This document shows, piece after piece, positions 43,013 to 64,000 of a stretch of DNA of 64,000 bases (the stretch's first letter is position 1; each line of letters opens with the position of its first letter). The stretch is from Minisyncoccota bacterium. GTDB lineage: Bacteria; Patescibacteriota; Minisyncoccia; Phycocordibacterales; Phycocordibacteraceae. The notes beneath the pieces are model-generated. The model worked only from the letters and a program-made list of their open reading frames with translations, was not told the origin of the DNA and made no database searches. The position numbers and the translations under genes are program-made. The DNA lies in assembly GCA_041664265.1 (NCBI GenBank), contig JBAYLD010000001.1, positions 40,051 through 104,050 on the forward strand. The letters run 5' to 3'.

Positions 43013-43084
43013 GGCCAGATGGCGAAGTGGTAACGCGACGGTCTGCAAAACCGTTATGCGCGGGTTCAATTCCCGCTCTGGCCT
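43013..43084 (+). tRNA. tRNA-Cys (anticodon GCA)
   Basis: Acceptor GGCCAGA/TCTGGCC, anticodon stem ACGGT/ACCGT with loop CTGCAAA, T-loop TTCAATT. Confidence 0.75.
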
Positions 43085-43104
43085 CTGGTAAGATATAGAT
43101 GTTT

Positions 43105-43192
43105 GCCGAGATGGTGGAATGGTAGACACGCGACGCTTAAAACGTTGTAAGCTTTAAATCGGCTTGTGTGGGTTCGAGTCCCACTCTCGGCA
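43105..43192 (+). tRNA. tRNA-Leu (anticodon UAA), type II with long variable arm
   Basis: Acceptor GCCGAGA/TCTCGGC, anticodon loop CTTAAAA, about 19-nt variable arm, T-loop TTCGAGT. Confidence 0.8.
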
Positions 43193-43208
43193 CTGAAGTA
43201 GCATATTA

Positions 43209-44381
43209 TTACCCTTTGATTTCATGAGGCAAATCAAGGATATTTTCGGCTGTCTCCATACTTCCCCGCTGTTTCCTTTGAATTTCCAGCCACCGGTTGA
43301 CCACCGGTTGCCCAAAATCCGCCGCAAGAGCAGCTCTCGGATTCAAGAGATCTATCGCTGCCCGGTAGGAGGAAGGTGCCACATGCGCGTATCGCATCGT
43401 GGTCATGATAGAGGTATGCCCCAAGAGTTCTTTTATTGTGTTCAGGGGCACGCCCTTCATGGAGAGGTGCGAGGCGAACGTGTGCCGCAAGGCGTGCCAG
43501 GTTATCCTCCTGATCCCTGCTTTTTTACATGCTCGCGTCAGTGCGGCACCTAAGCGGCATGCGCTGAAAGGATGCTGCCGTTCATCAGCAAAGACAAACC
43601 CTGATTTTCGCTGCCTTCTGAGCAGGATATCGTAGACATCAACATCAAGCGGAATGGGACGCTCTCGGTTGCTCTTTGGAGATGTCAGCGTCTTGGCACG
43701 ATCGACAAGCGAGTGCCGCACCACCAGGTTTTGGTTTTGCCAGTCGATGGATGTCCACTGGAGCCCCCGCAACTCCCCCAGCCGCATGCCGGTCCGAAGG
43801 CCGGTGAGAATTAAGTCGTACAACACGCCATTCAGCATTCCCTTCGCTCCTATAAGCAACAACTTGGCATCCGCTTCGGAGAGATAGTTTGTCTCAGGCG
43901 GCGGGCACACGAGCCGCTTTATCCGCGGAGGCGTTGATTCAAGCTGTAGCCATTCGTAGGCCGTGGTGAGGCAGGTGTTCAACACGGTTAGGCGATTGTT
44001 CACTGTCTTCCTCGCCGCCCCCTTTTGAAGCGCGTGTGCCTTGTACCGTTCAACATCATGCGCTGTGATTTGCCCGAGGGGCATCTTGCCGAAGAATGGC
44101 AGGAGCGATGATCTGAGGATGTATCTCTTGGTTTGGCATTCCGAAGCCTTGTTATTAGAGATTACGTACTCGTCAAACCAACGTTGGGCAAATTGCGCAA
44201 ATGTCTGTCCTGATTCGTTCGGTTTGGCATTTATGTCCTCACCGTGAGCCAATTTTCGCCGCAAGACAACTTCGTATGCAAGCGCTGCCGCTCTTGAATT
44301 CTCGGGACTTCGCTTTCGATAACGGACATAGTTGAACCAGAAGTCGATCCACCAGGAATTCTTTATCTTTCGTACTGCCAT
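43209..44381 (-). CDS. Tyrosine-type site-specific integrase
   Basis: C-terminal catalytic region 'HALRHTFASHLSMKGVPLNTIKELLGHTSIMTTMRYAHV' (R..HxxR...Y). tRNA-adjacent. Confidence 0.85.
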   Translation of the reverse strand: MAVRKIKNSWWIDFWFNYVRYRKRSPENSRAAALAYEVVLRRKLAHGEDINAKPNESGQTFAQFAQRWFDEYVISNNKASECQTKRYILRSSLLPFFGKMPLGQITAHDVERYKAHALQKGAARKTVNNRLTVLNTCLTTAYEWLQLESTPPRIKRLVCPPPETNYLSEADAKLLLIGAKGMLNGVLYDLILTGLRTGMRLGELRGLQWTSIDWQNQNLVVRHSLVDRAKTLTSPKSNRERPIPLDVDVYDILLRRQRKSGFVFADERQHPFSACRLGAALTRACKKAGIRRITWHALRHTFASHLSMKGVPLNTIKELLGHTSIMTTMRYAHVAPSSYRAAIDLLNPRAALAADFGQPVVNRWLEIQRKQRGSMETAENILDLPHEIKG

Positions 44382-45419: not shown

Positions 45420-46262
45420 ATGAATAAGCGAGGATTAATACTAGACCTCGATAATACATTATACAATTGGGTCGATGCTTTTCTTCCTAGTTTCCGAGCT
45501 ATGATTCACAAGTTATCACACGAGCTTAGCATAGAGGAAGAGGAGATACTTGACGATTTCCGTGATGTATATCTAAAGCACGGCACCGTAGAGTACCCCA
45601 GAGCTGTCAATGAGCTAACCCTTTGGGACAGAAACAAGATCTCTGATAAAGAAAGAAAACGAATTTCTGAGATTGTCGACAAAGTCTTCTCCATCAATTA
45701 CCGGAGTCATTTACGTCTTTTTCCCAATGTACGAGAAGTTTTAATGTGGACTCGAGAAGAAGGGATCCCGGTAATAGGTCTTTCTGATGCTCTTGAACGT
45801 TGGGTCTGTTATCGGCTCAGAATCCTTGGAATCGAGAAGTACTTTGCAGGCCTCTATACATGGCAGCATGATCAATGGTTTGATGATCGTCATCCGCATC
45901 ATAGTTCTATAAAAACACGCGTCCAGCTTAATAGCAACGAATTGAAACCAAATTTGGAAGTTGTTAATCGAGTTCTTGCGGATTTCTCATTAAACAGGGA
46001 AACCACATTCATGGTGGGAGATAGCCTATCAAAGGATATCGCTGTAGCACAGACTGCTGGGGTCAATGATGTCTGGGCCCGATATGGCACACGCCCGCAT
46101 GAGCTAAATCTTAATACTCTTCGACGGATTACTCCTTGGTCTGAGTCGGAGAAGGCTAAGGAGAAGAACGCCAAGTTACACATTGTACCTACTTTCATAA
46201 TTGATGACTTTCATGAACTAATCGGCCTGATCGGCACTCGTAGACCAAAGCTTTTTGACTAG
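45420..46262 (+). CDS. HAD-superfamily hydrolase (phosphatase-like)
   Basis: Motif I 'LILDLDNTLY' (DxDxT), motif IV 'MVGDSLSKDI'. Confidence 0.7.
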   Translation: MNKRGLILDLDNTLYNWVDAFLPSFRAMIHKLSHELSIEEEEILDDFRDVYLKHGTVEYPRAVNELTLWDRNKISDKERKRISEIVDKVFSINYRSHLRLFPNVREVLMWTREEGIPVIGLSDALERWVCYRLRILGIEKYFAGLYTWQHDQWFDDRHPHHSSIKTRVQLNSNELKPNLEVVNRVLADFSLNRETTFMVGDSLSKDIAVAQTAGVNDVWARYGTRPHELNLNTLRRITPWSESEKAKEKNAKLHIVPTFIIDDFHELIGLIGTRRPKLFD

Positions 46263-46268
46263 GAAAGA

Positions 46269-47351
46269 TTGATGCACTTCGGAAATGTGGAACTTGATGC
46301 AGCATTTATAGATGCAGAGGATATCGTCGCCAAGCTGCATTTCCTCGACCAAATGGAAAGACGATGGCCATATAATCCTGCAAAGGGCGTCTCTTTGTCC
46401 GAGCGTGTGGCCTGCTCCCTAACCCAACTTCCACCTGAACTACAGCAATTCGCTCTCGCCGTGTTCACTAATGTAATATACCTCCCAGATACACTCCTAA
46501 GAGAGTCATGGAGCTACCTGGCAAGCAAGATCGCTAGAGACCTCGGTATCACAGTATGTAACCTTTTCGAGCAATCTCACCTCTTGGAAGTTGATCCTAG
46601 TGGCCTTATCCCGACTTTTCTCCATGAAAATAAAGTGCATGGCCGCCTCGATACAGATCACTTCTCTCGTCTGCAGTCAATTGATGAATTGGCTAACAAT
46701 CTGCGGCTTATTGGTTTATCTGACAAACAAGAAGAGGGATCTGTACATGGAATTCGTTTGGCTTTTAGTCGACCATTTTGGCTACTTCTCTCAGATAACG
46801 TTCTCAGCGGAACCTCGGTCGCATCCGATCTAAGCCGCTGTGACCGTCTGATTAATGCTTACTCGAAGCTCGGTACTCCAAAGATAATCCCAGTAACGCA
46901 AGTTCTTACGTCCTCAGCCGAATCCTCCGTGCTTTCATCCTGGACCACTACATTCGCTCTCCGCTTTGACAAACAGTTTCAAGTTCTGCCTGGTAATGAA
47001 GATTGTAGCCTATTTAGCAGACGGGATACATTAGACGGAGCCATACGTCTTTGTGACTGGTTTGCTAGCCAAGATTGGTTTTCTAAGGACGATCGCTTAA
47101 CCGCGACCTTACAGAAGAGCGGAGACAACATGGCATATGGTTATAAAAGGGGAGGATGGACTATTGTCACTCCAAACTGCCCCACAAACTCACTTCCAAT
47201 TCTATGGTATGAGCGGGAAGGTGTATATAAGGCCCCCTTTCCAAGGATAATGTCAAGGACATCTCAAATGAAAGGGCACGGAGAGGAGTTGACGGAGGAC
47301 GCCATCTCCTTGGCGCCCCGAGTTCTCAAGAAGTTAGGGGTGGTTGACTAA
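46269..47351 (+). CDS. Hypothetical protein, paralog A (N-terminal 'FxNVELDAAF' motif)
   Basis: ORF only. Shares an N-terminal motif with the next gene. Confidence 0.4.
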   Translation: MMHFGNVELDAAFIDAEDIVAKLHFLDQMERRWPYNPAKGVSLSERVACSLTQLPPELQQFALAVFTNVIYLPDTLLRESWSYLASKIARDLGITVCNLFEQSHLLEVDPSGLIPTFLHENKVHGRLDTDHFSRLQSIDELANNLRLIGLSDKQEEGSVHGIRLAFSRPFWLLLSDNVLSGTSVASDLSRCDRLINAYSKLGTPKIIPVTQVLTSSAESSVLSSWTTTFALRFDKQFQVLPGNEDCSLFSRRDTLDGAIRLCDWFASQDWFSKDDRLTATLQKSGDNMAYGYKRGGWTIVTPNCPTNSLPILWYEREGVYKAPFPRIMSRTSQMKGHGEELTEDAISLAPRVLKKLGVVD

Positions 47352-48409
47352 TGCGCACTTACTTTGATGGAGTCGAACTAGATGCAATATTCCATTCCAT
47401 CCGAGATATGCCAATTGTCCTTGTTGCTACACCAAACTATGAGGAACGTTCGATTGGGTTCTCGCAATGGTTTCTCCATACTTGTCACTCTCAAAAGATT
47501 GATCCAGCAAAAATATTCGCTCAATTCTTGTGGCCTCAAGGAACCTCTTCGCGAGTCGATCTTCTGGAAAAATTAAAAATATCTCAGATTGATAAGCTTT
47601 CTGAACAGCTTCAGTATTGCGCATGGACCCGATCTGTCTTCAGCTACCCAGATGACTTTAATGAAAGACAGGTTATTGATTTAATTCATGAAGCAACTAA
47701 TAAATTTAGCGATGAGCCCTTTAGTCTGATTATAGATATTTCCTGTATGCCTAGGCGAGTAATAGTATCTGTGTGTGATGCTGTTGTCGAGAAAATTAGA
47801 TGTGTTGATAAAGCAGTCCGCCCCCTAGTTTTTTTCGTATACGCGTCGCCGAAAAAGTATGCGGCGATGCGGTACGCGCAGAATATCGGCAATGTTAAAG
47901 GTTATTTCTCTGGCCGTCCCATTCACAATTGCCCTTCCGATCATGTGACCGCTCTGATTTTTGCAAGTTTACAGGGGTACGAAGGCAAAGTGCTCTATGA
48001 TGAGGTCCGAAGCAGGATCAGAAGCTCGGTAACTACATTCGTGGCGGTAAGTGGAGCAGATTACCAAACATCGCTCGCGACAATGAGAGCAAACCAATTC
48101 CTTATGGAGCAGAGAGACATAGACGTCTCGTACTATTTTTCTTTAATGGATGGAATGGAGAAATTAGCAAAACGCATCGAAGCCGAAGGTTTGGTGGGGG
48201 GAGGGAGTGGACTTTCTAGAATGGTGTTAGTCGCTCCCTTCGGCCCAAAGGTTTTTACACTTGGGGCATATTTCATGCTTTCTAACCTACGCTCAGTCAA
48301 TGACTCCATCCAAACTGAAATTGCCCACGTCAGCGGCTTTCAGTATCTTTCATTGTACTCGCTCGGGCTAAGTCATTTTAACGTATTTAAACTATGTGTG
48401 GAGATCTGA
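47351..48409 (+). CDS. Hypothetical protein, paralog B (N-terminal 'FDGVELDAIF' motif)
   Basis: ORF only. Start overlaps the stop of the previous gene. Confidence 0.4.
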   Translation: MRTYFDGVELDAIFHSIRDMPIVLVATPNYEERSIGFSQWFLHTCHSQKIDPAKIFAQFLWPQGTSSRVDLLEKLKISQIDKLSEQLQYCAWTRSVFSYPDDFNERQVIDLIHEATNKFSDEPFSLIIDISCMPRRVIVSVCDAVVEKIRCVDKAVRPLVFFVYASPKKYAAMRYAQNIGNVKGYFSGRPIHNCPSDHVTALIFASLQGYEGKVLYDEVRSRIRSSVTTFVAVSGADYQTSLATMRANQFLMEQRDIDVSYYFSLMDGMEKLAKRIEAEGLVGGGSGLSRMVLVAPFGPKVFTLGAYFMLSNLRSVNDSIQTEIAHVSGFQYLSLYSLGLSHFNVFKLCVEI

Positions 48410-49067
48410 TTCTGTGACGGTAATAAAAATCTGCGATGTGAGAAAGCCGGAGGTAGCATCTTTTTGTGCTTCATGCGGTGCAGAAATGATTGGCCTACAC
48501 TGTATTTGGCACCCTCCGTCCGGAGAGAAATTAGCAACTTTCCAGGATATTTTTAGAGTAGTGCAAGGGCGATGCAAGTGTGTTTTAGTTACCCGTCAAA
48601 AGGATATTCCAACAATCATAGACATGATACAAGGGATGGCATGGGACTATATCCAACTGCATTCGGACTGGGCCCTTAGCAGTATCAATCAGCTTAGGGC
48701 GAGACTGAGTGAAAGCGGCAGATCACTTGGCTTAATCGGTGTTATTGAGATCAGTATGCAAGGCATAACACGAATTAAAAAAATTGCAGAAGCTACAGAT
48801 ATTCTTCTTCTTGATAGCTCGATTCGTGGTGGAAGTGGGACATCCGCGTCATCTGCATTACTTGAACAGGCGGTATCGCATATTCAATCCAAGCCCTTTT
48901 TAATTGCCGGGGGACTTCGAGAAGAGAATGTTTCTCATATAATAGAAAAATATCACCCGTGGGGAGTCGATGTTCAGTCCGGGGTTGAGAAGCCCGGCGG
49001 CAGCAGAGAAAAAGATTTCGACATGATACGGGGGTTCATCTCTACCGTGCGATCCCCAACACGATGA
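48396..49067 (+). CDS. Phosphoribosylanthranilate-isomerase-like (TrpF-fold) TIM-barrel enzyme, standalone with no other trp genes
   Basis: 'IKICDV' (compare IKICGI), 'YIQLHSD' (LHG), 'LLDSSIRGGSGTS', 'LIAGGLREENV...WGVDVQSGVEKPGGSREKD' match the TrpF C-terminal phosphate-binding pattern. Confidence 0.5.
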   Translation: MWRSDSVTVIKICDVRKPEVASFCASCGAEMIGLHCIWHPPSGEKLATFQDIFRVVQGRCKCVLVTRQKDIPTIIDMIQGMAWDYIQLHSDWALSSINQLRARLSESGRSLGLIGVIEISMQGITRIKKIAEATDILLLDSSIRGGSGTSASSALLEQAVSHIQSKPFLIAGGLREENVSHIIEKYHPWGVDVQSGVEKPGGSREKDFDMIRGFISTVRSPTR

Positions 49068-58521: not shown

Positions 58522-59274
58522 CTAAATCATGATTAAATCTTGGTTTTGCCCCCTGACCTCCCCGTAAGTAATAAGCCCCTTTCGGTAAAGGTGTTCCCGG
58601 CCCAAGATCGCGCTTACTTGCCTTTGTGTCCAGGATTTACCATTCCTTCTCAGGTAGCCGCACTCATTTAGAAAGGCGGCGATTTCCCCGGCGCCTTTAT
58701 TTTGCGCATGCAGAGAAAATATGTGTTTTACAACGTCCGCTTCCTGGGGATTCTTCTTTATCTCCCGGCCGTACCTCGTATATCCATAAGGCAACGTCCC
58801 ACCGGCCATCAAGCCTTTTCTTATCCGCTCTTCCCTTCCCTTTTTCAACCGTTCAATGATTTCTTTCCGATTTTCCTCGGCAATGGCAGCCTTGATCTGC
58901 CGTATGAGGACGTCTTTCCTGTTATTACCGTCATAATTTGGCATATCTCCTATGAATATTTTCACCCCGAGATTCTGAAAATCATAGATTAAATTCTCCG
59001 TAAACCGCAGGTTTCTCGATAGGCGATCGAGAGACGAAACAACGACCGCCCCAATCTTACCCGCCTTGCAATCACGGACCAGCCGGCGTAGTTGGTTCCG
59101 GCGTTCCGATGCTCCGCTCTGCGCTTCATCAATGTAATAATCCTCGACGGGCAAGCCGAAAACTTCCGCGTATCGTTCAATATCCCTTCTCTGAATATCA
59201 ATCCCATAGCCTTTCTTTTTTTGTTCCAGGGTGCTTACCCGGCAGTAGGCAGCCACAATTTTCCTTTTCTCCAT
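58522..59274 (-). CDS. Small serine recombinase (resolvase/invertase family)
   Basis: 'VAAYCRVSTLEQ' catalytic Ser, 'VVSSLDRLSRN', C-terminal recombinase/HTH region. 250 aa. Confidence 0.85.
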   Translation of the reverse strand: MEKRKIVAAYCRVSTLEQKKKGYGIDIQRRDIERYAEVFGLPVEDYYIDEAQSGASERRNQLRRLVRDCKAGKIGAVVVSSLDRLSRNLRFTENLIYDFQNLGVKIFIGDMPNYDGNNRKDVLIRQIKAAIAEENRKEIIERLKKGREERIRKGLMAGGTLPYGYTRYGREIKKNPQEADVVKHIFSLHAQNKGAGEIAAFLNECGYLRRNGKSWTQRQVSAILGREHLYRKGLITYGEVRGQNQDLIMI

Positions 59275-59567
59275 GCAATCCGACAGTTAGCCGATTATCG
59301 CAGCTTCTCTTTGTAAAGGGGAACCGAAGGTTAAAGACCTATATTGCTATGGGGCAAGGATGTCAAGCAAAATGTCAAGCCAAAATTGAGCATCATTTGC
59401 CAAATATTTCGACCTTGGTAACCATCCCATCGTCGAAAACTTTGCCAAAACTTCTAACTGCTTTATTAAAAAACTTAAAACCCACGTTTAAAATTCATTT
59501 CATCCTTATAAATGCGACTGTTTTAGACTACATTCCCTCAACTTTACAAAGTTGCATAGAGGGGCTA

Positions 59568-59813
59568 ATGGTTCATTCTTTTCGGTCCGATGAACTACAG
59601 AAAATTGTCTCAGAGGCCGTCGAATATTTTCTAAAAGGTCCCATTGAATCTTTCCCGACCTTCAAACCATTCATAGGTGGGGGCGTATACACCCTTTATT
59701 ACATGGGCGACTTCCCTATTTACAGCAATATCAAAGTAGCGGAGGTTAAGCCGGGCTCCGTTCCTATTTACATGGGAAAATCAATCCAAGCGGCTGGCGA
59801 ACGGCAAGAATAA
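59568..59813 (+). CDS. Hypothetical small protein
   Basis: ORF only. Internal Met of a longer ORF (59109-59813) that overlaps the recombinase on the opposite strand. Confidence 0.2.
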   Translation: MVHSFRSDELQKIVSEAVEYFLKGPIESFPTFKPFIGGGVYTLYYMGDFPIYSNIKVAEVKPGSVPIYMGKSIQAAGERQE

Positions 59814-59946: not shown

Positions 59947-59975
59947 ATAAAATTTCCTTGACATGAAAGACTGCT
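59947..59975 (+). promoter_or_regulatory. Candidate promoter TTGACA-17-TATCCT upstream of the ubiquitin-like operon
   Basis: -35 at 59947-59952 and -10 at 59970-59975, about 170 nt before the first gene. Confidence 0.3.
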
Positions 59976-60146
59976 TTCCGTATCCTCAACCCATGCAAAA
60001 GTAAGCTCTTATCAATGTGGCTCCTCGGGCAGCGCATAAAACAATTCACACCCTGAAAAGGGCTTTGGAGCATTCCCGCCATCTTGTTAGGCAAGTGGAC
60101 GCGCATGCGTGATTACCAAGCTTCCGGGAATCGGTAAGGTATAGGT

Positions 60147-60443
60147 ATGGCAATGACAAACCAAGACGCAGCAACAGCGAGCAAGGCTAAACCTGGCGAC
60201 AACAACGAAAAGTATTTCTATTTCGTGGACGGGGAAAAGTTTGACTCCGAGAATGAATTTACCACGGGTGCGATTATCAAGTCCCGGCTGGCGGAAGCAA
60301 AGCGTAGCTATGCGTTGTTCCTCGAGGGCCACGACAACGATCCCGACACATTGATCGGCGATGACACCAGCATCGACCTGGGAAAAGAAAAAGGCCCGAA
60401 GCGATTTTACACCGTTCCACCCGCCAGTTTTGGCAGCCCATGA
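60147..60443 (+). CDS. Multiubiquitin-domain (bacterial Ubl, beta-grasp) protein
   Basis: 'KYFYFVDGEKFDSENEFTTGAIIKSRL...YALFLEGHDNDPDTLIGDDTSIDLGKEKGPKRFYTVPPASFG' fits the Multiubiquitin-family pattern. First gene of the operon. Confidence 0.5.
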   Translation: MAMTNQDAATASKAKPGDNNEKYFYFVDGEKFDSENEFTTGAIIKSRLAEAKRSYALFLEGHDNDPDTLIGDDTSIDLGKEKGPKRFYTVPPASFGSP

Positions 60444-60817
60444 CTCCTGTCGAAGAGCAGTTCGAGATTCTTCGAGGTTATGAAAATGGTGCCGTCCTAC
60501 AAAAGTTACCGGACGGTTCTCATCTGATCACCATCGGAGGAGTCAAACTCCCTTCCGGCTGGTCCAAGGCGTTTGTTGGCGTTAAATTCCTCGCTCCTGT
60601 CGGCTATCCTTTCTCCAAGCCCGACTGCTTCTGGACAGACCCAGATTTGCGCTTGGCCAATGGTAACCCCCCAATGAACACAGGCTCAAACCCTATACCT
60701 CACGTCAATTCTGGAGGTCTGTGGTTCTCGTGGCACGTGGCATCGTGGAATCCCAATTTTGACAATCTCCTAACGTACTGGTACGTCATTAAACGGAGGC
60801 TCTGTGATCCCCGATGA
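60440..60817 (+). CDS. E2-like (UBC-fold) ubiquitin-conjugating enzyme homolog (Prok-E2 type)
   Basis: 'PVGYPFSKPDCFW' parallels the eukaryotic E2 'YPFKPP' core. Overlapping start/stop with its neighbours. Confidence 0.45.
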   Translation: MTPVEEQFEILRGYENGAVLQKLPDGSHLITIGGVKLPSGWSKAFVGVKFLAPVGYPFSKPDCFWTDPDLRLANGNPPMNTGSNPIPHVNSGGLWFSWHVASWNPNFDNLLTYWYVIKRRLCDPR

Positions 60818-62139
60818 GCCGACTCGTCCTCACATCTGACTTCCTCGCCAGTTTGAGAGGAAATCTCCTCAAGCACGAGGAGGAGACCTGCGCCATTCTC
60901 TATGGTCGCCCCGTAGAAATCTCTGGCCGATTGGCCCGCATCGTGGTTCACGAGTCCACCTACCCGCAGGCAGAGGCCTACAACGCTCGCACGTCCATCC
61001 GCGCACAACTCAAGCCTGAGTTTGTCTCCGAAGCAGTTCAGCGTGCGCGGCGCAACGGTGAATCGGTCATTTTTGTTCATTCGCACCCATTTCCCTTCAA
61101 CCAATTTTCGGAGACCGACGACGCAGGCGAGCGGGAGTTGGTGCCTTTTCTGAGTGGTCGCATCCCTGATGTCCCGCATGCAGCGATGCTGCTTACCCCC
61201 GAAACAAGCATTGCTCGTGAGATCGGCACAAAGAAACCGCTTCGCGTGGTTGGGGTTGGTGAGAACATCATTTGGGGAGAAGCTGCTGGAGGTGAAAAGC
61301 CGGCCGAACGCTACGATCGGCAAATCAGAGCATTCGGCACCGCTGGGCAGGATGTGCTCAGATCAATTTGTGTTGCTATTGTCGGATTGGGCGGCACTGG
61401 CTCGGTAGTTCTCCAAGAATTGATGTATCTCGGCGTACGTGACTTCATCCTGCTCGATCCTGACACCGTTGAAGAAACGAACCTCAACCGCCTCGTTGGC
61501 ACAGTTCCCTCCGACATCGGGAAGGCTAAAGTTGATGTTGCGGAAAAATGGGCAAAGCGAATCAATCGAACGCTTCGCATTGGCGCGAGAAAAGAAAGTG
61601 CCCTCAAAGCCGATGTCGCGAGGTCTCTGGCGGAGGCCGATTTTCTGTTTTGCTGTACAGATTCCCACGGCAGTCGCGCCGTTTTGAACCAGTTTGCGTA
61701 TCAGTATCTCGTACCGGCAATTGATATGGGCGTGGTGATCGCGACAGCCAAGGGACGAGTCACCCATGTTGCCGGCCGCACACAAATGCTTGCTCCCGGA
61801 CTTGCCTGCATGGCGTGCGGAAATCTCTTGGATGCAGAACGGGTGCGCCGGGATCTAATGACTGATTTTGAAAGACAGCAGGACCCATATATTGTCGGTC
61901 AACCGGAACCGGCTCCAGCCGTCATCTCTCTGAACAGTACCGTGGCATCGCTCGCGGTAACGATGTTCCTCAACGCCACGGTCGGCATTCCCGGCTCCGC
62001 ACGATTTCTCAATTACAACGGTATGACCGGAACCTGCCGCCCAGTTCTGAGCATCCCACACCCTTCATGCATTGTTTGCTCGCCCCGCGGTGCGATAGCT
62101 CGCGGCGACGAGTGGCCGCTACCCGCGCGACAGGACTGA
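60814..62139 (+). CDS. JAB/MPN deubiquitinase-like domain fused to an E1-like ThiF/MoeB adenylyltransferase
   Basis: N-terminal JAMM 'IFVHSHPF...S..D'. C-terminal 'RQIRAFGTAGQDVLRSICVAIVGLGGTGSVVLQELMYLGV', 'LLDPDTVEETNLNRL', 'CMAC'. Confidence 0.75.
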   Translation: MSRLVLTSDFLASLRGNLLKHEEETCAILYGRPVEISGRLARIVVHESTYPQAEAYNARTSIRAQLKPEFVSEAVQRARRNGESVIFVHSHPFPFNQFSETDDAGERELVPFLSGRIPDVPHAAMLLTPETSIAREIGTKKPLRVVGVGENIIWGEAAGGEKPAERYDRQIRAFGTAGQDVLRSICVAIVGLGGTGSVVLQELMYLGVRDFILLDPDTVEETNLNRLVGTVPSDIGKAKVDVAEKWAKRINRTLRIGARKESALKADVARSLAEADFLFCCTDSHGSRAVLNQFAYQYLVPAIDMGVVIATAKGRVTHVAGRTQMLAPGLACMACGNLLDAERVRRDLMTDFERQQDPYIVGQPEPAPAVISLNSTVASLAVTMFLNATVGIPGSARFLNYNGMTGTCRPVLSIPHPSCIVCSPRGAIARGDEWPLPARQD

Positions 62140-62142
62140 CCT

Positions 62143-63666
62143 GTGCATCCAGAACGTAAAACCGTACTCCAAATCGGCTCCGCCACAGTTGAAGAGGAAT
62201 TCTTCCATAAACTTCAAAAACATTTTATTGAACATGGACTTCGTCTGACCCCTTCCGCCCTGACTCAGATCCCGAGTGAGGCAAATTCGGCGTGCGGCAT
62301 TCTGATTGCCGAAATGTCCGGCAAGATTGGTTTTATACGATCGTGCTTCGAGACGTTGAGCGACACCGCAGAGGATTCAGGGCTAGCGTTTGCCGTTCTC
62401 GTTCCCACCTCGGATGGGCTTGGCGTGGTGGAGCGGCTTATTTGCGAGTTACGCATGGAATCGCGGGCCACCGTTAGCCTCACCGAGGATGCAGGGAACG
62501 CTGCCGAATATCTCGCCCGCTGGACTCCGGGACCGCCCTTAGGTAAACCGACGGTTCTCCCGCCAGGTTTCGGCCTGCCGCCTCGAACGGAGCTGCTACT
62601 TCAAAGGTCATTCCATGACTGCGATCGAATTTACCTGCAGCCACTCAGTGGCGGGCGAGACGCGTCGGGCGTTTTTTGCGTCCATGCCTGGCTTAGGAAA
62701 TCGATCGTTGGGCCGAGACCCTTGCCATTCTTCATCAAGTTCTCTACGCCGGACAAAATAAAAGGGGAGCGATCTAACTATGAGGACTATGCCGACTTTT
62801 ATATCCCCTTTTATCTCAGGCCCAACATCGTTCCTATGCGATGTGCTCAGGTCAAGGATTTGGCCTCTCTTGTGGGCAATTTTGTGGAGGGCGCGATACC
62901 GCTAAGGGCCGCACTCCGGGCGTGCCAGAGCCCTGGAATTATCTTCTCACTTTTTGAGATCAGCTTGAGGGGATTTAGATCCCAGCCAGCCAGCGGGCCA
63001 ACTGCGAGTTGGGATGAGCCATTGGAAGCCTTCGTGCGCGAACGTGTCCGGGCGGCAGAGGTTGAGGCGGATACTGTTGATCTCGCCCGGTCCTCCTTCG
63101 GTTTGAAGTTCACGCCGATAGAAATCGAAAATCGCCTATGTGCTGCCATTGGACCAGTCAAACGAAACTTCAGCCCATACCATGGCGATCTGCATACTGG
63201 AAACATCATGGTTCGTGGTAGGGATGCCATCCTAATTGATTTCAGCGCCGTTAAGAAGGGGCCACTCACCGCCGATCCCGCCACCTTGGAAGCAAGCCTT
63301 GTTTTCGGAACCGACGCTGAGGACGATAGCGCTGAGTTTGAGGAATGGAAGAAAGCTGTGGATGTGATTTACGACGGTGTTCTAATCCACGAACCACCCT
63401 CTCTCGGAACCGGTCCAGGTCCCTTCGCTTGGCTTTACATGGCGCTCCGGGAAATTCGGCACGTCCTACTCGGATGCGATTGCAAACAGGAGGAAGCTGC
63501 GGAGGTGCTCGCAGCGTACCTGCTTCGTTTTGGGCGTCTGCCCGCCGACAAATTTGAGGATAAGACGCTTTCGGAACTGGCACGTTCAAGACGTGCGTAC
63601 GCCTTGGTGGTAGCCGAGAGAATCGTGGACTCGCTGGTTGCAAAGAAAGGAACAGCAGCGACGTGA
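62143..63666 (+). CDS. Protein with C-terminal protein-kinase-like/APH-fold domain; last complete gene of the ubiquitin-like operon
   Basis: Catalytic-loop-like 'HGDLHTGNIM' followed by 'ILIDFSAV' (DFG-like). Confidence 0.4.
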   Translation: MHPERKTVLQIGSATVEEEFFHKLQKHFIEHGLRLTPSALTQIPSEANSACGILIAEMSGKIGFIRSCFETLSDTAEDSGLAFAVLVPTSDGLGVVERLICELRMESRATVSLTEDAGNAAEYLARWTPGPPLGKPTVLPPGFGLPPRTELLLQRSFHDCDRIYLQPLSGGRDASGVFCVHAWLRKSIVGPRPLPFFIKFSTPDKIKGERSNYEDYADFYIPFYLRPNIVPMRCAQVKDLASLVGNFVEGAIPLRAALRACQSPGIIFSLFEISLRGFRSQPASGPTASWDEPLEAFVRERVRAAEVEADTVDLARSSFGLKFTPIEIENRLCAAIGPVKRNFSPYHGDLHTGNIMVRGRDAILIDFSAVKKGPLTADPATLEASLVFGTDAEDDSAEFEEWKKAVDVIYDGVLIHEPPSLGTGPGPFAWLYMALREIRHVLLGCDCKQEEAAEVLAAYLLRFGRLPADKFEDKTLSELARSRRAYALVVAERIVDSLVAKKGTAAT

Positions 63667-64000
63667 TGCCAACACCCGTAAATAAGGTCTTATTTCGAGG
63701 AAAGGTCCAGCGGCGCGACTTGGGCACACCACTCCTTCAGGCACCTGGCGATGCGGTGCTCGTCGAGAGAGGCAAACCCAGGCTGTTGATTCTTCGCTGT
63801 CCCTGTGGTTGCGGTGACGACCTGCTCGTCAATCTCGACAGGCGGACCGGAAAGGCATGGTATCTCTATCGAAGTCGGAAGGGACTGAGTCTGTATCCGT
63901 CATATTGGCGAGACGACGGCTGCGGCTCCCATTTCATTGTATGGAACGACCACATCTATTGGTGTCGCGGCTGGGGGGCTGACGAAAGCGATGATTGGCA
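63666..64000 (+). CDS. Cys-rich small protein (CPCGCGD...CGSH...C), truncated at the window end
   Basis: Hand-translated from the ATG overlapping the upstream TGA: MPTPVNKVLFRGKVQRRDL...RCPCGCGDDLLVNLD...DGCGSHFIVWNDHIYWCRGW. No stop before the window end. Confidence 0.3.
   Translation, partial: MPTPVNKVLFRGKVQRRDLGTPLLQAPGDAVLVERGKPRLLILRCPCGCGDDLLVNLDRRTGKAWYLYRSRKGLSLYPSYWRDDGCGSHFIVWNDHIYWCRGWGADESDDW

What the first reader, a model, noticed from the sequence alone, without database searches (positions are those of the whole stretch)
60147..64000. Ubiquitin-like conjugation operon (multiubiquitin, E2-like, JAB-E1 fusion) with kinase-fold and CxxC partners, cut by the window edge
Five tightly overlapping genes encode a Multiubiquitin-domain Ubl, a UBC-fold E2-like protein, a JAB/MPN domain fused to a ThiF-type E1, a 507-aa protein with an 'HGDLHTGNIM...IDFS' kinase-like core, and a Cys-rich protein that runs off the window. 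Ubl-E2-E1/JAB neighbourhoods are known from comparative genomics and were recently tied to anti-phage defence. The kinase-fold and Cys-rich partners are not part of the commonly described core and may be the effector or sensor.
Basis: partly seen in the sequence, partly recalled or inferred. Interest (0 to 1): 0.7.

Follow-up and report, generated by a model that had tools for sequence, protein, structure and literature searches.

The report
Bub ubiquitin-like operon with dedicated kinase
This is an intact bacterial ubiquitin-like protein-tagging operon of the recently described "Bub" type that also carries a strongly conserved kinase gene absent from the published descriptions, which could help show how these still function-less systems are controlled or aimed.

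Summary
Five packed genes at 60147-64000 encode a single-domain Ubl (BubA), a Cys-less E2 (BubB), a JAB-E1 fusion (BubCD), a 507-aa kinase and the start of a Cys-rich protein. Identical contigs complete the last gene as a 178-aa DUF6527/BubE. This is a Type I Bub ("6E.1") operon (Ye et al. 2024 preprint). Every residue that paper showed or proposed to be catalytic is present and invariant in relatives. These are the E2 Asp/Ser/His, the JAMM site, the adenylation Arg, the crossover-loop Tyr and the BubE Ser-His dyad with its Zn cysteines.

The kinase is the new part. It has a receiver-like N-terminal domain and an APH-fold kinase with all catalytic residues invariant. All 11 kinase relatives whose context I examined (28-100% identity) sit in the same five-gene cassette. 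Among 65 decidable metagenomic relatives of this BubCD, 57 have the kinase straight after BubCD and 3 (two distinct loci) have it in a convergent Ubl-kinase pair. The Bub papers I could read never mention a kinase.

Verdict: a new variant of a known kind. The kinase's role, regulator or specificity factor, is inferred and not shown.

The parts
60147..60443 (+). bubA: single beta-grasp ubiquitin-like protein (98 aa, or 96 aa from the ATG at 60153). The conserved C-terminus is VPPAxFG (G96, codon 60432-60434), followed by a 2-residue tail (SP) that is presumably removed by the JAB domain.
   Evidence: Pfam Multi_ubiq at 0.017 for this protein; 4 of 6 orthologues match, best 1.2e-6. A profile of 6 orthologues hits solved Ubls 9cd2 (E. 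coli Type II BubA, 3.2e-5), 9d59 (6e-5) and 8u38 (BilA, 4.7e-4). G96 is invariant in 51 distinct orthologues, followed by 0-2 (rarely 6-7) variable residues.
60440..60817 (+). bubB: E2-like UBC-fold protein (125 aa) with Ser in place of the catalytic Cys. The predicted active site is D62 (60623-60625), S97 (60728-60730) and H99 (60734-60736).
   Evidence: Pfam Prok-E2_E at 4.4e-10, 39.8 bits against a cutoff of 25. phmmer hits solved Citrobacter BubB (9eae_C) at 2.7e-4, and 'FSWH' aligns with its S333-x-H335. D62, S97 and H99 are invariant in 74 distinct orthologues.
60814..62139 (+). bubCD: JAB/JAMM peptidase fused to a ThiF-type E1 (441 aa). JAMM residues are E24, H89, H91, S99 and D102. The adenylation Arg is R226. 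The crossover-loop Tyr is Y359 (61888-61890). Two CxxC pairs (C332/C335, C419/C422) are a probable structural Zn site.
   Evidence: Pfam Prok-JAB at 6e-10 plus ThiF at 1.3e-39. The best PDB match is Citrobacter BubCD 9ea4 at 1.5e-36 over residues 2-386. Its E28, H91/H93, D104, R227 and Y370 align to these residues. All are invariant in 72 distinct orthologues, except E24, which is gapped in one. There is no Cys between residues 335 and 408.
62143..62520 (+). Kinase gene, N-terminal domain (residues 1-126): a (beta-alpha)5 flavodoxin-like, receiver-like domain that lacks the receiver's acidic phospho-acceptor set.
62581..63666 (+). Kinase gene, APH/eukaryotic-like-kinase fold domain (residues ~147-507 of the 507-aa product of 62143-63666). 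Predicted catalytic residues are K199, E209, D349, N354 and D366, with a Gly-rich loop at G170-G171.
   Evidence: Pfam APH at 2.4e-8 and TCAD9 at 1.3e-12; the TCAD9 match covers only 55 of 429 profile positions. The full-length AF2 model has pLDDT 89.8 and pTM 0.86. Foldseek best hits are APH(3'), glucosamine kinase, methylthioribose kinase, choline kinase and FN3K. K199, D349, N354 and D366 are invariant, and E209 is present in 52 of 53 distinct orthologues.
63666..64000 (+). bubE (DUF6527), first 111 of 178 codons; the gene ends at the equivalent of window position 64202. The Zn cluster is C45/C47/C49/C86. The Ser-His dyad is S79 (63900-63902) and H89 (63930-63932).
   Evidence: Pfam DUF6527/BubE at 4.6e-15. 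Full length comes from the identical contigs L001-L003. The spacing S, +7 C, +10 H is identical to Citrobacter BubE S92/C99/H102. S79, H89, C45, C49 and C86 are invariant in 55 orthologues; C47 is Cys in 42 and Asp in 12.

Best explanation
The locus is an intact Type I Bub (bacterial ubiquitination-like, formerly '6E.1') operon of an undescribed five-gene subtype. It lies in a genomic island integrated next to tRNA-Leu.

Core mechanism, inferred by residue-level homology to the experimentally characterised Citrobacter system:
1. The JAB domain of BubCD trims the two residues after Gly96 of the Ubl BubA.
2. The E1 domain adenylates Gly96.
3. The Ubl passes as an oxyester to Tyr359 on the E1 crossover loop.
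4. It then passes to Ser97 of the Cys-less E2 BubB, assisted by His99 and Asp62.
5. It is finally attached to a lysine on a target.
6. BubE, a Zn-containing Ser79-His89 protease, removes the Ubl again.

New element: a 507-aa protein encoded between bubCD and bubE is a dedicated fifth subunit of this clade. It consists of a receiver-like N-terminal domain and a catalytically competent APH-fold kinase. My most likely reading (about 50%) is that it couples ATP-dependent phosphorylation to the conjugation cycle. In that reading it acts as a regulator or specificity factor on the Ubl, on a pathway enzyme or on the substrate, and it is not needed for the conjugation chemistry itself. By context the system is probably a stress or anti-phage module. 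That is not shown for any Bub operon.
For: Identity as Type I Bub:
- Pfam domains match.
- BubCD's best PDB hit is Citrobacter BubCD at 1.5e-36, with E28, H91, H93, D104, R227 and Y370 aligned.
- BubB hits solved Citrobacter BubB with Ser-x-His aligned.
- The Ubl profile hits solved Bub and Bil Ubls.
- BubE has the Ser/Cys/His spacing of the published protease.
- All these residues are invariant in 51-74 distinct orthologues, E24 being gapped in one.
- The mobile-island context matches the paper's description. tRNA-Leu and an integrase lie at 43105-44381, conjugation and defence genes lie nearby, and CapH/CapP lies beside the adjacent Type II Bub operon.

Kinase as a dedicated subunit:
- All 11 kinase relatives whose context was examined, at 28-100% identity and with unrelated flanks, lie in the order A-B-CD-K-E.
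- Of 80 metagenomic relatives of BubCD, 65 are decidable. In 57 the kinase follows CD directly. In 3 (two distinct loci) it lies in a convergent pair with a second Ubl. In 5 it is absent, and the four placed on the NJ tree of BubCD nest among kinase-positive loci.
- Catalytic K, D, N and D are invariant and E is present in 52 of 53. The AF2 model is confident.
- The family is small and uniform in architecture: 214 representatives at E<=1e-30.

Kinase as accessory to the chemistry:
- Kinase-less cassettes occur, and nothing replaces the kinase in them.
- The Citrobacter system conjugates without any kinase.

Link to the Ubl:
- In the variant loci the kinase gene is directly preceded by a second Ubl gene that ends exactly at the conserved Gly.
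Against: - No biochemical activity was tested here. The oxyester mechanism is transferred from one Citrobacter and one E. coli system (preprint).
- The window's Ubl alone scores below Pfam's cutoff.
- BubA and BubB are separate genes here. The preprint's text says all Type I operons fuse them, although its own Table S1 lists about 31 unfused operons.
- BubB of this clade carries a nearly invariant Cys63 next to Asp62, in 72 of 74 sequences. A thioester route is therefore not formally excluded.
- The kinase's nearest structural neighbours are all small-molecule kinases. I found no Ser/Thr/Tyr on the Ubl that tracks with kinase presence. Its substrate may therefore not be a protein.
- Bub operons have not been shown to defend against phage.
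- No CapH/CapP or CapW regulator lies directly upstream of this operon.
Confidence: 0.8

Rival explanations
1. The kinase is the effector or the target, not a regulator. As Cap2 in Type II CBASS conjugates the CD-NTase to prime it, BubB/BubCD would attach the Ubl to the kinase, or release it from a Ubl-bound state. The activated kinase would then phosphorylate host or phage components to stop infection.
For: - Described Bub operons contain no recognisable effector.
- APH-type and TCAD9-type kinases are listed among effector domains of vWA-MoxR conflict systems.
- The kinase is catalytically intact.
- The receiver-like N-domain could be a docking or auto-inhibitory module.
Against: - Kinase-less cassettes nested in the clade keep the other four genes intact, with no replacement effector. 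The four-gene core therefore has a function of its own.
- Nothing here shows conjugation to the kinase.
- The pairing with a second Ubl fits either model.
Confidence: 0.25
2. The kinase acts on a small molecule, such as an amino sugar, an ethanolamine/choline-type head group or a nucleotide-like signal. It would make or destroy an acceptor or ligand for the Bub pathway and would not phosphorylate a protein.
For: - All top structural neighbours are small-molecule kinases: APH(3'), glucosamine kinase, methylthioribose kinase, choline kinase, amicoumacin kinase and maltokinase.
- Kaur et al. suggested low-molecular-weight substrates for the APH-type kinases of ternary systems.
- Invariant Arg and Trp residues cluster in the C-terminal helical lobe, namely W402, W430, R436, R439, R462 and R465.
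Against: - No biosynthetic or transport genes accompany the cassette in any locus examined.
- FN3K and some APH-fold kinases do act on proteins.
- The TM-scores of the matches are low, 0.28-0.38 normalised to the query.
Confidence: 0.2
3. The kinase gene is a passenger, for example an aminoglycoside-resistance APH or a stray TCAD9 gene from a vWA-MoxR-VMAP ternary system, that happened to insert in this operon.
For: - Pfam APH and TCAD9 hits.
- JGI names one homologue 'associated with vWA-MoxR-VMAP ternary system'.
Against: - The same position and orientation are conserved in 57 of 65 decidable loci and in all 11 kinase relatives whose context was examined, down to 28-31% identity.
- Start and stop codons are tightly coupled to the neighbouring genes.
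- The JGI-named homologue itself sits in a Bub cassette.
- The TCAD9 match covers only 55 of 429 profile positions.
- No vWA, MoxR or VMAP genes are nearby.
Confidence: 0.02
4. The operon is a ThiS/MoaD-type sulfur-carrier or cofactor-biosynthesis system, or a canonical Cys-thioester Bil or CBASS-type system, and not Bub.
For: - The E1 domain scores against MoeB/ThiF models at 1e-17 to 1e-23.
- PADLOC models of CBASS E1-E2 and BilD give weak hits, 7e-12 to 7e-8, to the Rossmann core only.
Against: - All NCBIfam MoeB/ThiF scores are far below their cutoffs, for example 82 against 266 bits.
- There are no rhodanese, sulfurtransferase, CD-NTase or separate JAB genes.
- The E2 has Ser at the catalytic position and the E1 has Tyr in the crossover loop with no Cys domain.
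- DUF6527/BubE is present.
- By far the best PDB match is BubCD.
Confidence: 0.03

Closest known systems
Type I Bub operon (formerly 6E.1), Citrobacter sp. RHBSTW-00271 BubAB/BubCD/BubE (Ye, Gong, Chambers, Corbett, bioRxiv 10.1101/2024.11.21.623953)
   Same: - The same four protein families in the same order: Ubl, Cys-less E2, JAB-E1 fusion, DUF6527 protease.
- Every experimentally implicated residue is conserved: JAMM E/H/H/D, adenylation Arg, crossover Tyr, E2 Asp/Ser/His, BubE Ser/His and Zn cysteines.
- It lies in a tRNA-adjacent mobile island.
   Different: - An extra 507-aa kinase gene lies between bubCD and bubE.
- Ubl and E2 are separate genes (4-nt overlap), not a fusion.
- The Ubl has one beta-grasp domain, not three.
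- The E1 keeps two CxxC pairs that Citrobacter BubCD lacks.
- BubB carries a conserved Cys next to the active-site Asp.
- BubE carries a ~75-aa C-terminal helical extension.
- BubCD identity to Citrobacter is low: E=1.5e-36 over about 385 residues.
Row 6e operons of Iyer, Burroughs and Aravind 2006 (polyUbl, inactive E2/RWD-like, JAB-E1, metal-binding protein 'Y')
   Same: This is the original comparative-genomics description of the same neighbourhood. It includes unfused Ubl and E2 and a solo-Ubl example.
   Different: No kinase is listed among the components. The E2 was thought to be inactive.
Type II Bub operon (BubA, BubBD E2-E1 fusion, BubE)
   Same: It uses the same Ubl, E1 and BubE families and the same oxyester logic. 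A complete Type II operon with CapH/CapP lies tail-to-tail immediately beyond the window edge.
   Different: It has no JAB domain, its E2 is fused to E1 (DUF6791+ThiF), and it has no kinase.
Bil (bacterial ISG15-like) and Type II CBASS Cap2/Cap3 systems
   Same: These are bacterial Ubl/E1/E2/JAB conjugation modules in defence islands. The JAB domain processes or reverses conjugation.
   Different: Bil and CBASS use catalytic cysteines and have no DUF6527. Bil E1 has IAD-AAD-CYS domains. CBASS conjugates a CD-NTase and has no Ubl. Neither is reported with a kinase.
TCAD9 / APH-type kinases of vWA-MoxR-VMAP ternary conflict systems (Kaur et al. 2020, eLife 9:e52696; Pfam PF19974)
   Same: They share the APH-type kinase catalytic core (HGDLHxGN...IDF). 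The TCAD9 score is above Pfam's cutoff (48.1 against 40 bits). They also occur in conflict or defence contexts.
   Different: The match covers only the catalytic-loop region, 55 of 429 profile positions. The gene neighbourhood is completely different (Bub, with no vWA/MoxR/VMAP). The receiver-like N-domain is specific to this family. More distant kinase hits (L013, L017, L019) have no Bub genes nearby.
PINK1 and phospho-ubiquitin in eukaryotes (from my own knowledge; an analogy only)
   Same: A kinase is functionally coupled to a ubiquitin-like conjugation pathway. In variant loci the bacterial kinase gene is paired directly with a Ubl gene.
   Different: There is no homology beyond the general kinase fold, and no evidence here that the Ubl is phosphorylated.

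Membership tests
Type I Bub (6E.1) | Ubl (BubA) with a beta-grasp domain of the Multi_ubiq type and a conserved C-terminal Gly | tested here: met
   A profile of 6 orthologues hits solved BubA/BilA structures at 3.2e-5 to 5e-4. Pfam Multi_ubiq matches 4 of 6 orthologues, best 1.2e-6; the window protein alone scores 0.017, below cutoff. Gly96 is invariant in 51 sequences. No structure prediction was run for this protein.
Type I Bub (6E.1) | E2 (BubB) of the Prok-E2_E/UBC type with invariant Ser, His and Asp in place of a catalytic Cys | tested here: met
   Prok-E2_E at 4.4e-10. It aligns to solved Citrobacter BubB with S97-x-H99 on S333-x-H335. D62, S97 and H99 are invariant in 74 sequences. 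Caveat: Cys63 is adjacent to D62 in 72 of 74.
Type I Bub (6E.1) | JAB/JAMM peptidase fused to the N-terminus of a homodimer-type E1 (BubCD) with intact JAMM and adenylation residues | tested here: met
   Prok-JAB plus ThiF in one 441-aa protein. The best PDB hit is BubCD 9ea4 at 1.5e-36. H89, H91, S99, D102 and R226 are invariant in 72 sequences; E24 is gapped in one.
Type I Bub (6E.1) | E1 crossover loop with an invariant Tyr and no catalytic Cys | tested here: met
   Y359 aligns with Citrobacter Y370 and is invariant in 72 sequences. No Cys lies between residues 335 and 408. C332/C335 and C419/C422 look like the MoeB/UBA5-type structural Zn site; that inference rests on family knowledge.
Type I Bub (6E.1) | DUF6527 protein (BubE) with a C4-type Zn cluster and a Ser-His dyad | tested here: met
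   PF20137 at 4.6e-15. C45/C47/C49/C86, S79 and H89 have the published spacing. Ser and His are invariant in 55 sequences.
Type I Bub (6E.1) | Ubl encoded as a fusion to the E2 (BubAB), as stated in the preprint's text | tested here: not met
   The genes are separate, in different frames, with a 4-nt overlap. This is not disqualifying. The preprint's Table S1 files about 31 unfused operons as Type I, and Iyer et al. 2006 describe both forms.
Type I Bub (6E.1) | ATP-dependent Ubl conjugation through oxyester intermediates; BubE-dependent deconjugation | not testable with these tools
   This needs biochemistry. It is inferred only from residue conservation.
Type I Bub (6E.1) | Frequent (not obligatory) association with mobile elements at tRNA genes and with CapH/CapP or CapW regulators | tested here: met
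   tRNA-Leu and an integrase lie at 43105-44381. Conjugation genes lie upstream. CapH/CapP is next to the neighbouring Type II operon, not directly upstream of this one. A distant orthologous cassette (L110) has CapH/CapP divergently upstream.
TCAD9 (PF19974) kinases of ternary conflict systems | Full-length match to the TCAD9 profile | tested here: not met
   The score of 48.1 bits is above the cutoff of 40. The aligned stretch is only residues 337-394 against profile positions 293-347 of 429.
TCAD9 (PF19974) kinases of ternary conflict systems | Neighbourhood with vWA, MoxR and VMAP genes | tested here: not met
   None are present in any of the 11 kinase contexts examined.
APH / eukaryotic-like kinase superfamily | Bilobal kinase fold with beta3 Lys, alphaC Glu, HxD catalytic loop with Asn, and a DF(G)-type Mg-binding Asp | tested here: met
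   AF2 pLDDT is 89.8. Foldseek probability is 1.00 to APH(3'), MTR kinase, choline kinase and FN3K. K199, D349, N354 and D366 are invariant and E209 is present in 52 of 53.
CheY-like receiver domain (for the kinase N-domain) | Conserved acidic pocket (two Asp after beta1, phospho-acceptor Asp after beta3) with Thr/Ser and Lys | tested here: not met
   [not shown]
Bil (Type I/II) | E2 and E1 with catalytic cysteines; E1 with IAD-AAD-CYS architecture; separate JAB gene | tested here: not met
   The E2 has Ser at the catalytic position. The E1 is a single adenylation domain with Tyr. JAB is fused to it. The PADLOC BilD hit, 7e-8, covers only the Rossmann core.

The most novel reading that the evidence does not exclude
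The kinase phosphorylates the Ubl itself, free or already conjugated. That would give bacteria a phospho-ubiquitin-like signal analogous to PINK1 and phospho-ubiquitin. The phosphorylation would switch conjugation on, change which targets are tagged, or block BubE from removing the tag.

What is compatible with this:
- The kinase gene is paired directly with a second, pre-matured Ubl gene in variant loci.
- The kinase is dispensable for the four-gene core.
- Its active site is invariant.
Probability: 0.15. Interest if true: 0.85.

Novelty: new variant of a known kind. Interest (0 to 1): 0.6.

Why it matters
Bub pathways are the most divergent bacterial relatives of ubiquitination. They work without catalytic cysteines, and their targets, triggers and biological role are unknown. 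The authors who defined them could not find phage protection.

A large, mostly uncultured clade from soil and peat metagenomes has recruited a dedicated, catalytically intact kinase with a receiver-like domain. This gives a concrete experimental handle:
- The kinase's substrate is likely to be either a pathway component, which would reveal regulation, or the pathway's target, which would reveal function.
- It would also be the first described coupling of phosphorylation to a bacterial Ubl conjugation system.

In practice, databases label these kinases 'hypothetical', 'phosphotransferase' or even 'associated with vWA-MoxR-VMAP ternary system'. For this family the last label is misleading.

Tried and rejected
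1. PADLOC models: the Ubl, E2, kinase and BubE gave no hits. The E1 gave only weak Rossmann-core hits to CBASS E1-E2 and BilD. The system is not in PADLOC 2.0.
2. NCBIfam: there is no specific model for any of the five proteins. MoeB/ThiF hits are far below their cutoffs.
Only two true relatives were recovered (L011, L012). The other 16 loci are unrelated APH-like kinases without Bub genes.
4. IMG/VR scan with BubCD found only distant E1 relatives and no kinase-bearing cassette. There is no sign that it is phage-borne.
5. Phospho-acceptor search: I looked for a Ser/Thr/Tyr in the Ubl that distinguishes kinase-positive from kinase-negative cassettes and found none.
6. Replacement-module search: I looked for a gene that replaces the kinase in kinase-less loci. 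The downstream genes are unrelated: SocA/Panacea, HsdR and an NtrC-type regulator.
7. Promoter and terminator scan: a TTGACA-17-TATCCT site lies about 160 nt upstream of bubA, at window 59958-59986. The number of sites found is no higher than in shuffles, so I do not use it.
8. Literature: searches for DUF6527, Bub terms, TCAD9 and Prok-E2 found only the two Corbett-lab preprints on Bub. Neither they nor their supplements mention a kinase. Burroughs et al. 2011 (PMC5938088) could not be read.
The Ubl and E2 folds therefore rest on profile and sequence matches to solved structures, not on models.

Full report
OBSERVATION.
- 60147-60443 (98 aa; gene callers prefer the ATG at 60153, giving 96 aa)
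- 60440-60817 (125 aa)
- 60814-62139 (441 aa)
- 62143-63666 (507 aa)
- an ORF that starts at 63666 and runs off the window

The junctions are a 4-nt overlap, a 4-nt overlap, a 3-nt gap and a 1-nt overlap. Pfam gives Multi_ubiq (E=0.017, below cutoff), Prok-E2_E (4.4e-10), Prok-JAB (6e-10) plus ThiF (1.3e-39), TCAD9 (1.3e-12) plus APH (2.4e-8), and DUF6527, now named BubE (4.6e-15), for the truncated fifth ORF. An exact-sequence look-up of the 507-aa protein found three public metagenomic contigs. They are base-for-base identical to the window over 60147-64000. They complete gene 5 as a 178-aa protein that would end at window-equivalent position 64202.

WHAT IT IS. The gene set is a Ubl, a Cys-less E2, a JAB-E1 fusion and a DUF6527 protein. 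This is the '6e' neighbourhood of Iyer, Burroughs and Aravind 2006. Ye, Gong, Chambers and Corbett renamed it Type I Bub (bacterial ubiquitination-like) in bioRxiv 10.1101/2024.11.21.623953. They solved Citrobacter BubCD, BubB and BubA complexes and reported the following:
- The JAB domain cleaves after the Ubl's conserved Gly.
- The E1 has no catalytic Cys and has an invariant crossover-loop Tyr (Y370).
- The E2 has Ser333/His335/Asp299 in place of a Cys.
- Conjugation needs these residues, which implies oxyester intermediates.
- DUF6527/BubE is a Zn-dependent Ser92-His102 protease that removes conjugates.

RESIDUE-LEVEL COMPARISON.
- BubCD. The window's 441-aa protein has Citrobacter BubCD (PDB 9ea4) as by far its best solved relative, E=1.5e-36 against 1e-17 for MoeB. 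The aligned residues are E24, H89, H91, D102 (JAMM), R226 (adenylation) and Y359 (crossover Tyr).
- BubB. The 125-aa protein hits solved Citrobacter BubB at 2.7e-4. Its 'FSWH' lies on the S333-x-H335 motif and 'PDCF' lies on the Asp.
- BubE. The fragment has CxCxC, then Ser, then Cys at +7 and His at +10, exactly the published S92/C99/H102 spacing.
- BubA. The Ubl alone is weak in Pfam. A profile of six orthologues hits the solved E. coli Type II BubA (9cd2, 3.2e-5), another multi-ubiquitin protein (9d59, 6e-5) and BilA (8u38, 4.7e-4).
- Conservation across orthologues collected from metagenomes. D62/S97/H99 of BubB are invariant in 74 distinct sequences. H89/H91/S99/D102/R226/Y359 of BubCD are invariant in 72, and E24 is gapped in one. 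S79/H89 of BubE are invariant in 55. Gly96 of BubA is invariant in 51.
- Ubl C-terminus. It is (V/T)PPAxFG followed by 0-2 (rarely 6-7) variable residues. This explains why the JAB domain is retained even though the Ubl is not fused to the E2.

I therefore file the locus as Type I Bub. The one textual criterion it fails, the Ubl-E2 fusion, is contradicted by the preprint's own Table S1. That table lists about 31 unfused Type I operons.

THE NEW COMPONENT. The 507-aa protein is not part of any published Bub description. 'Kinase' occurs zero times in the two Bub preprints and their supplements. It is also absent from the 6e row of Iyer et al.. In the roughly 140 Type I rows of Table S1, the E1 and DUF6527 gene numbers are consecutive in all but two: Bradyrhizobium tropiciagri with a one-gene gap and Oceanicola with a two-gene gap. 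The published catalogue therefore essentially lacks this form.

Structure of the kinase protein:
- An AlphaFold2 model built on 42 homologues is confident, pLDDT 89.8 and pTM 0.86.
- Residues ~147-507 are an APH-type kinase. The nearest solved structures are APH(3'), glucosamine kinase, methylthioribose kinase, choline kinase, amicoumacin kinase, maltokinase and FN3K.
- K199, D349, N354 and D366 are invariant and E209 is present in 52 of 53. I therefore predict an active phosphotransferase.
- The TCAD9 match covers only 55 of 429 profile positions around the catalytic loop. The family is related to the 'ternary-system' kinases of Kaur et al. 2020 but is not a typical member.

IS THE KINASE REALLY PART OF THE SYSTEM? 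Yes, for four reasons.
- Every kinase relative whose context I examined lies in the order Ubl-E2-JAB/E1-kinase-BubE, with unrelated flanking genes. The set has 11 loci spanning 28-100% identity: the window locus; P0008 (68%), P0019 (50%), P0033 (43%), P0093 (40%, a Cytophagales genome), P0112 (36%), P0118 (34%), P0250 and P0226 (31%); and two named MAGs, a Verrucomicrobiae (41%) and a Vicinamibacterales (28%). Where gene callers had missed a gene, HMMs built from the family found it.
- A metagenome scan seeded with BubCD, not with the kinase, returned 80 loci at 43-90% BubCD identity. Of the 65 with enough sequence to decide, 57 have the kinase directly after BubCD. Three (two distinct loci) have BubE after BubCD and, convergently, a second Ubl gene followed by the kinase. 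Five have BubE after BubCD with no kinase in the available sequence.
- On a neighbour-joining tree of BubCD, the four kinase-less loci that could be placed nest among kinase-positive ones. Their downstream genes are unrelated. The kinase is therefore ancestral to this clade and was occasionally lost.
- An exhaustive HMMER search of 1.84 billion cluster representatives finds 214 members at E<=1e-30 and 502 at E<=1e-10, nearly all about 500 aa long. More distant kinase hits (L013, L017, L019) have no Bub genes nearby.

HOW IT PROBABLY WORKS. The steps below are shown elsewhere and inferred here by residue homology:
1. The JAB domain trims BubA to ...FG96.
2. The E1 adenylates Gly96.
3. The Ubl is transferred to Tyr359.
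4. It is then transferred to Ser97 of BubB, assisted by His99 and Asp62.
5. It is attached to a target lysine.
6. BubE (Ser79/His89) reverses the modification.

What I infer about the kinase:
- It is a dedicated accessory and not part of the chemistry. Citrobacter Bub conjugates without one, and kinase-less cassettes persist.
- It is functionally tied to the Ubl. In the variant loci its gene is immediately preceded by a second Ubl gene that ends exactly at the conserved Gly, so that Ubl needs no processing.
- My preferred reading is that it is a regulator or specificity factor. It would phosphorylate the Ubl, a pathway enzyme or the substrate, with the receiver-like domain serving as a docking or auto-inhibitory module.

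Rivals that stay open:
- The kinase is the effector or the target of conjugation, by analogy with Cap2 and the CD-NTase.
- It acts on a small molecule, since all its structural neighbours do.

I found no Ubl residue that tracks with kinase presence. I could not run multimer predictions. None of these readings is tested.

CONTEXT. The left 43 kb of the window is ordinary chromosome, with CTP synthase, PEP synthase and an IF-2-like GTPase. tRNA-Cys and tRNA-Leu lie at 43013-43193, followed by a tyrosine integrase at 43209-44381. Beyond them the island carries:
- a HAD/PRTase-CE/PRAI-like cluster and a radical-SAM gene
- DUF932, RadC, PD-(D/E)XK and a TraG-like coupling protein
- a surface protein and a serine recombinase
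- an Eco29kI endonuclease fragment
- the Bub operon

Just beyond the window edge, the identical contigs carry a complete Type II Bub operon on the opposite strand, tail-to-tail with this one. It consists of BubA (90 aa), BubBD (399 aa, DUF6791+ThiF) and BubE (133 aa). A divergent CapH/CapP regulator pair and a BsuBI/PstI-type restriction-modification system follow. This matches the preprint's picture of Bub operons in tRNA-inserted mobile and defence islands with CapH/CapP. That paper also states that no Bub operon has yet been shown to protect against phage. 'Defence' therefore remains an inference from context.

NOVELTY AND SCORE. The core system is known (comparative genomics 2006, biochemistry 2024), and the Cys-rich partner is a core member. 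New relative to everything I could read is a large, coherent Type I Bub clade defined by a fifth gene for an active kinase with a receiver-like domain. It comes mainly from soil and peat metagenomes and from Verrucomicrobiota, Acidobacteriota and Bacteroidota MAGs.

I rate it a new variant of a known kind, with interest 0.6. A specialist would want to know about it because it offers a handle on Bub regulation or targets, and it would be the first link between phosphorylation and bacterial Ubl conjugation.

Caveats:
- The mechanism of the kinase is unproven.
- I could not read Burroughs et al. 2011 or any journal version of the preprint.
- The Ubl and E2 folds rest on matches to solved structures, not on models made here.

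Noticed in passing
Beyond the window edge: L001 12356-15213 (window-equivalent 64498-67355): A complete Type II Bub operon lies tail-to-tail with the Type I operon. It consists of BubA (90 aa), the BubBD E2-E1 fusion (399 aa, DUF6791+ThiF) and BubE (133 aa). A divergent CapH (HTH) / CapP (M78 peptidase) pair follows, then a BsuBI/PstI-type restriction-modification system. Two different Bub systems side by side raises the question of cross-talk. The adjacency was not seen in the other loci.
   Followed up: partly
L063 4545-6340 (-), L065 (same sequence) and L074 2662-4452 (-): In these variant cassettes BubE follows BubCD directly. The kinase sits downstream on the opposite strand, immediately preceded by a second Ubl paralogue that ends exactly at the conserved Gly (...PPAMFG*, ...PPATQG*). 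This is a pre-matured Ubl paired with the kinase.
   Followed up: partly
window 60626-60628 (Cys63 of BubB): BubB of this clade has a nearly invariant Cys (72 of 74; Ser in 2) directly after the active-site Asp (PDCFW). Citrobacter BubB has Met there. Whether it lies near Ser97 and could take part in catalysis was not examined.
   Followed up: no
window 43013-44381: tRNA-Cys (43013-43085) and tRNA-Leu (43105-43193) are followed at once by a tyrosine integrase (43209-44381, - strand). This is the likely left boundary of the genomic island that carries the Bub operons.
   Followed up: partly
window 45420-49067: An unusual four-gene + strand cluster lies inside the island: a HAD hydrolase, a PRTase-CE domain protein, a 352-aa protein with no Pfam hit and a PRAI-like (phosphoribosylanthranilate isomerase family) protein. 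It could be a nucleotide- or ribose-modifying conflict module.
   Followed up: no
[not shown]
   Followed up: no
window 59109-59813 and 58522-59274: The ORF just upstream of the operon matches only profile positions 2-44 of 164 of the Eco29kI restriction endonuclease family, at its C-terminal end. It is probably a gene remnant. It overlaps the start of a serine recombinase gene (resolvase/recombinase domains) on the - strand.
   Followed up: no
L001 11830-12060 (BubE residues ~103-178; window-equivalent 63972-64202): BubE of this clade has a ~75-aa C-terminal helical extension with a conserved 'IPWE.LQAC.QL..G' motif. It looks more like a small helical or winged-helix-type domain than the hydrophobic membrane-associating tail described for Citrobacter BubE.
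   Followed up: no
L009 8001-9563 (protein P0112): JGI names this kinase homologue 'uncharacterized protein associated with vWA-MoxR-VMAP ternary system'. Its actual neighbourhood is a complete Bub cassette next to a Wadjet (JetB/JetC-like) locus. The label is transferred by homology and is misleading for this family.
   Followed up: yes
L110 264-1435: A distant orthologous five-gene cassette (kinase 31% identical) has CapH/CapP encoded divergently, directly upstream. This links the kinase-bearing subtype to the same DNA-damage-responsive regulators reported for other Bub operons.
   Followed up: partly
Preprint Table S1: The preprint's text says all Type I Bub operons fuse Ubl to E2, but its own table lists about 31 unfused ones. 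One row (Bradyrhizobium tropiciagri, IMG genes 2641677675-79) has an unlisted gene between E1 and DUF6527. It may be this kinase, in a cultured isolate.
   Followed up: no
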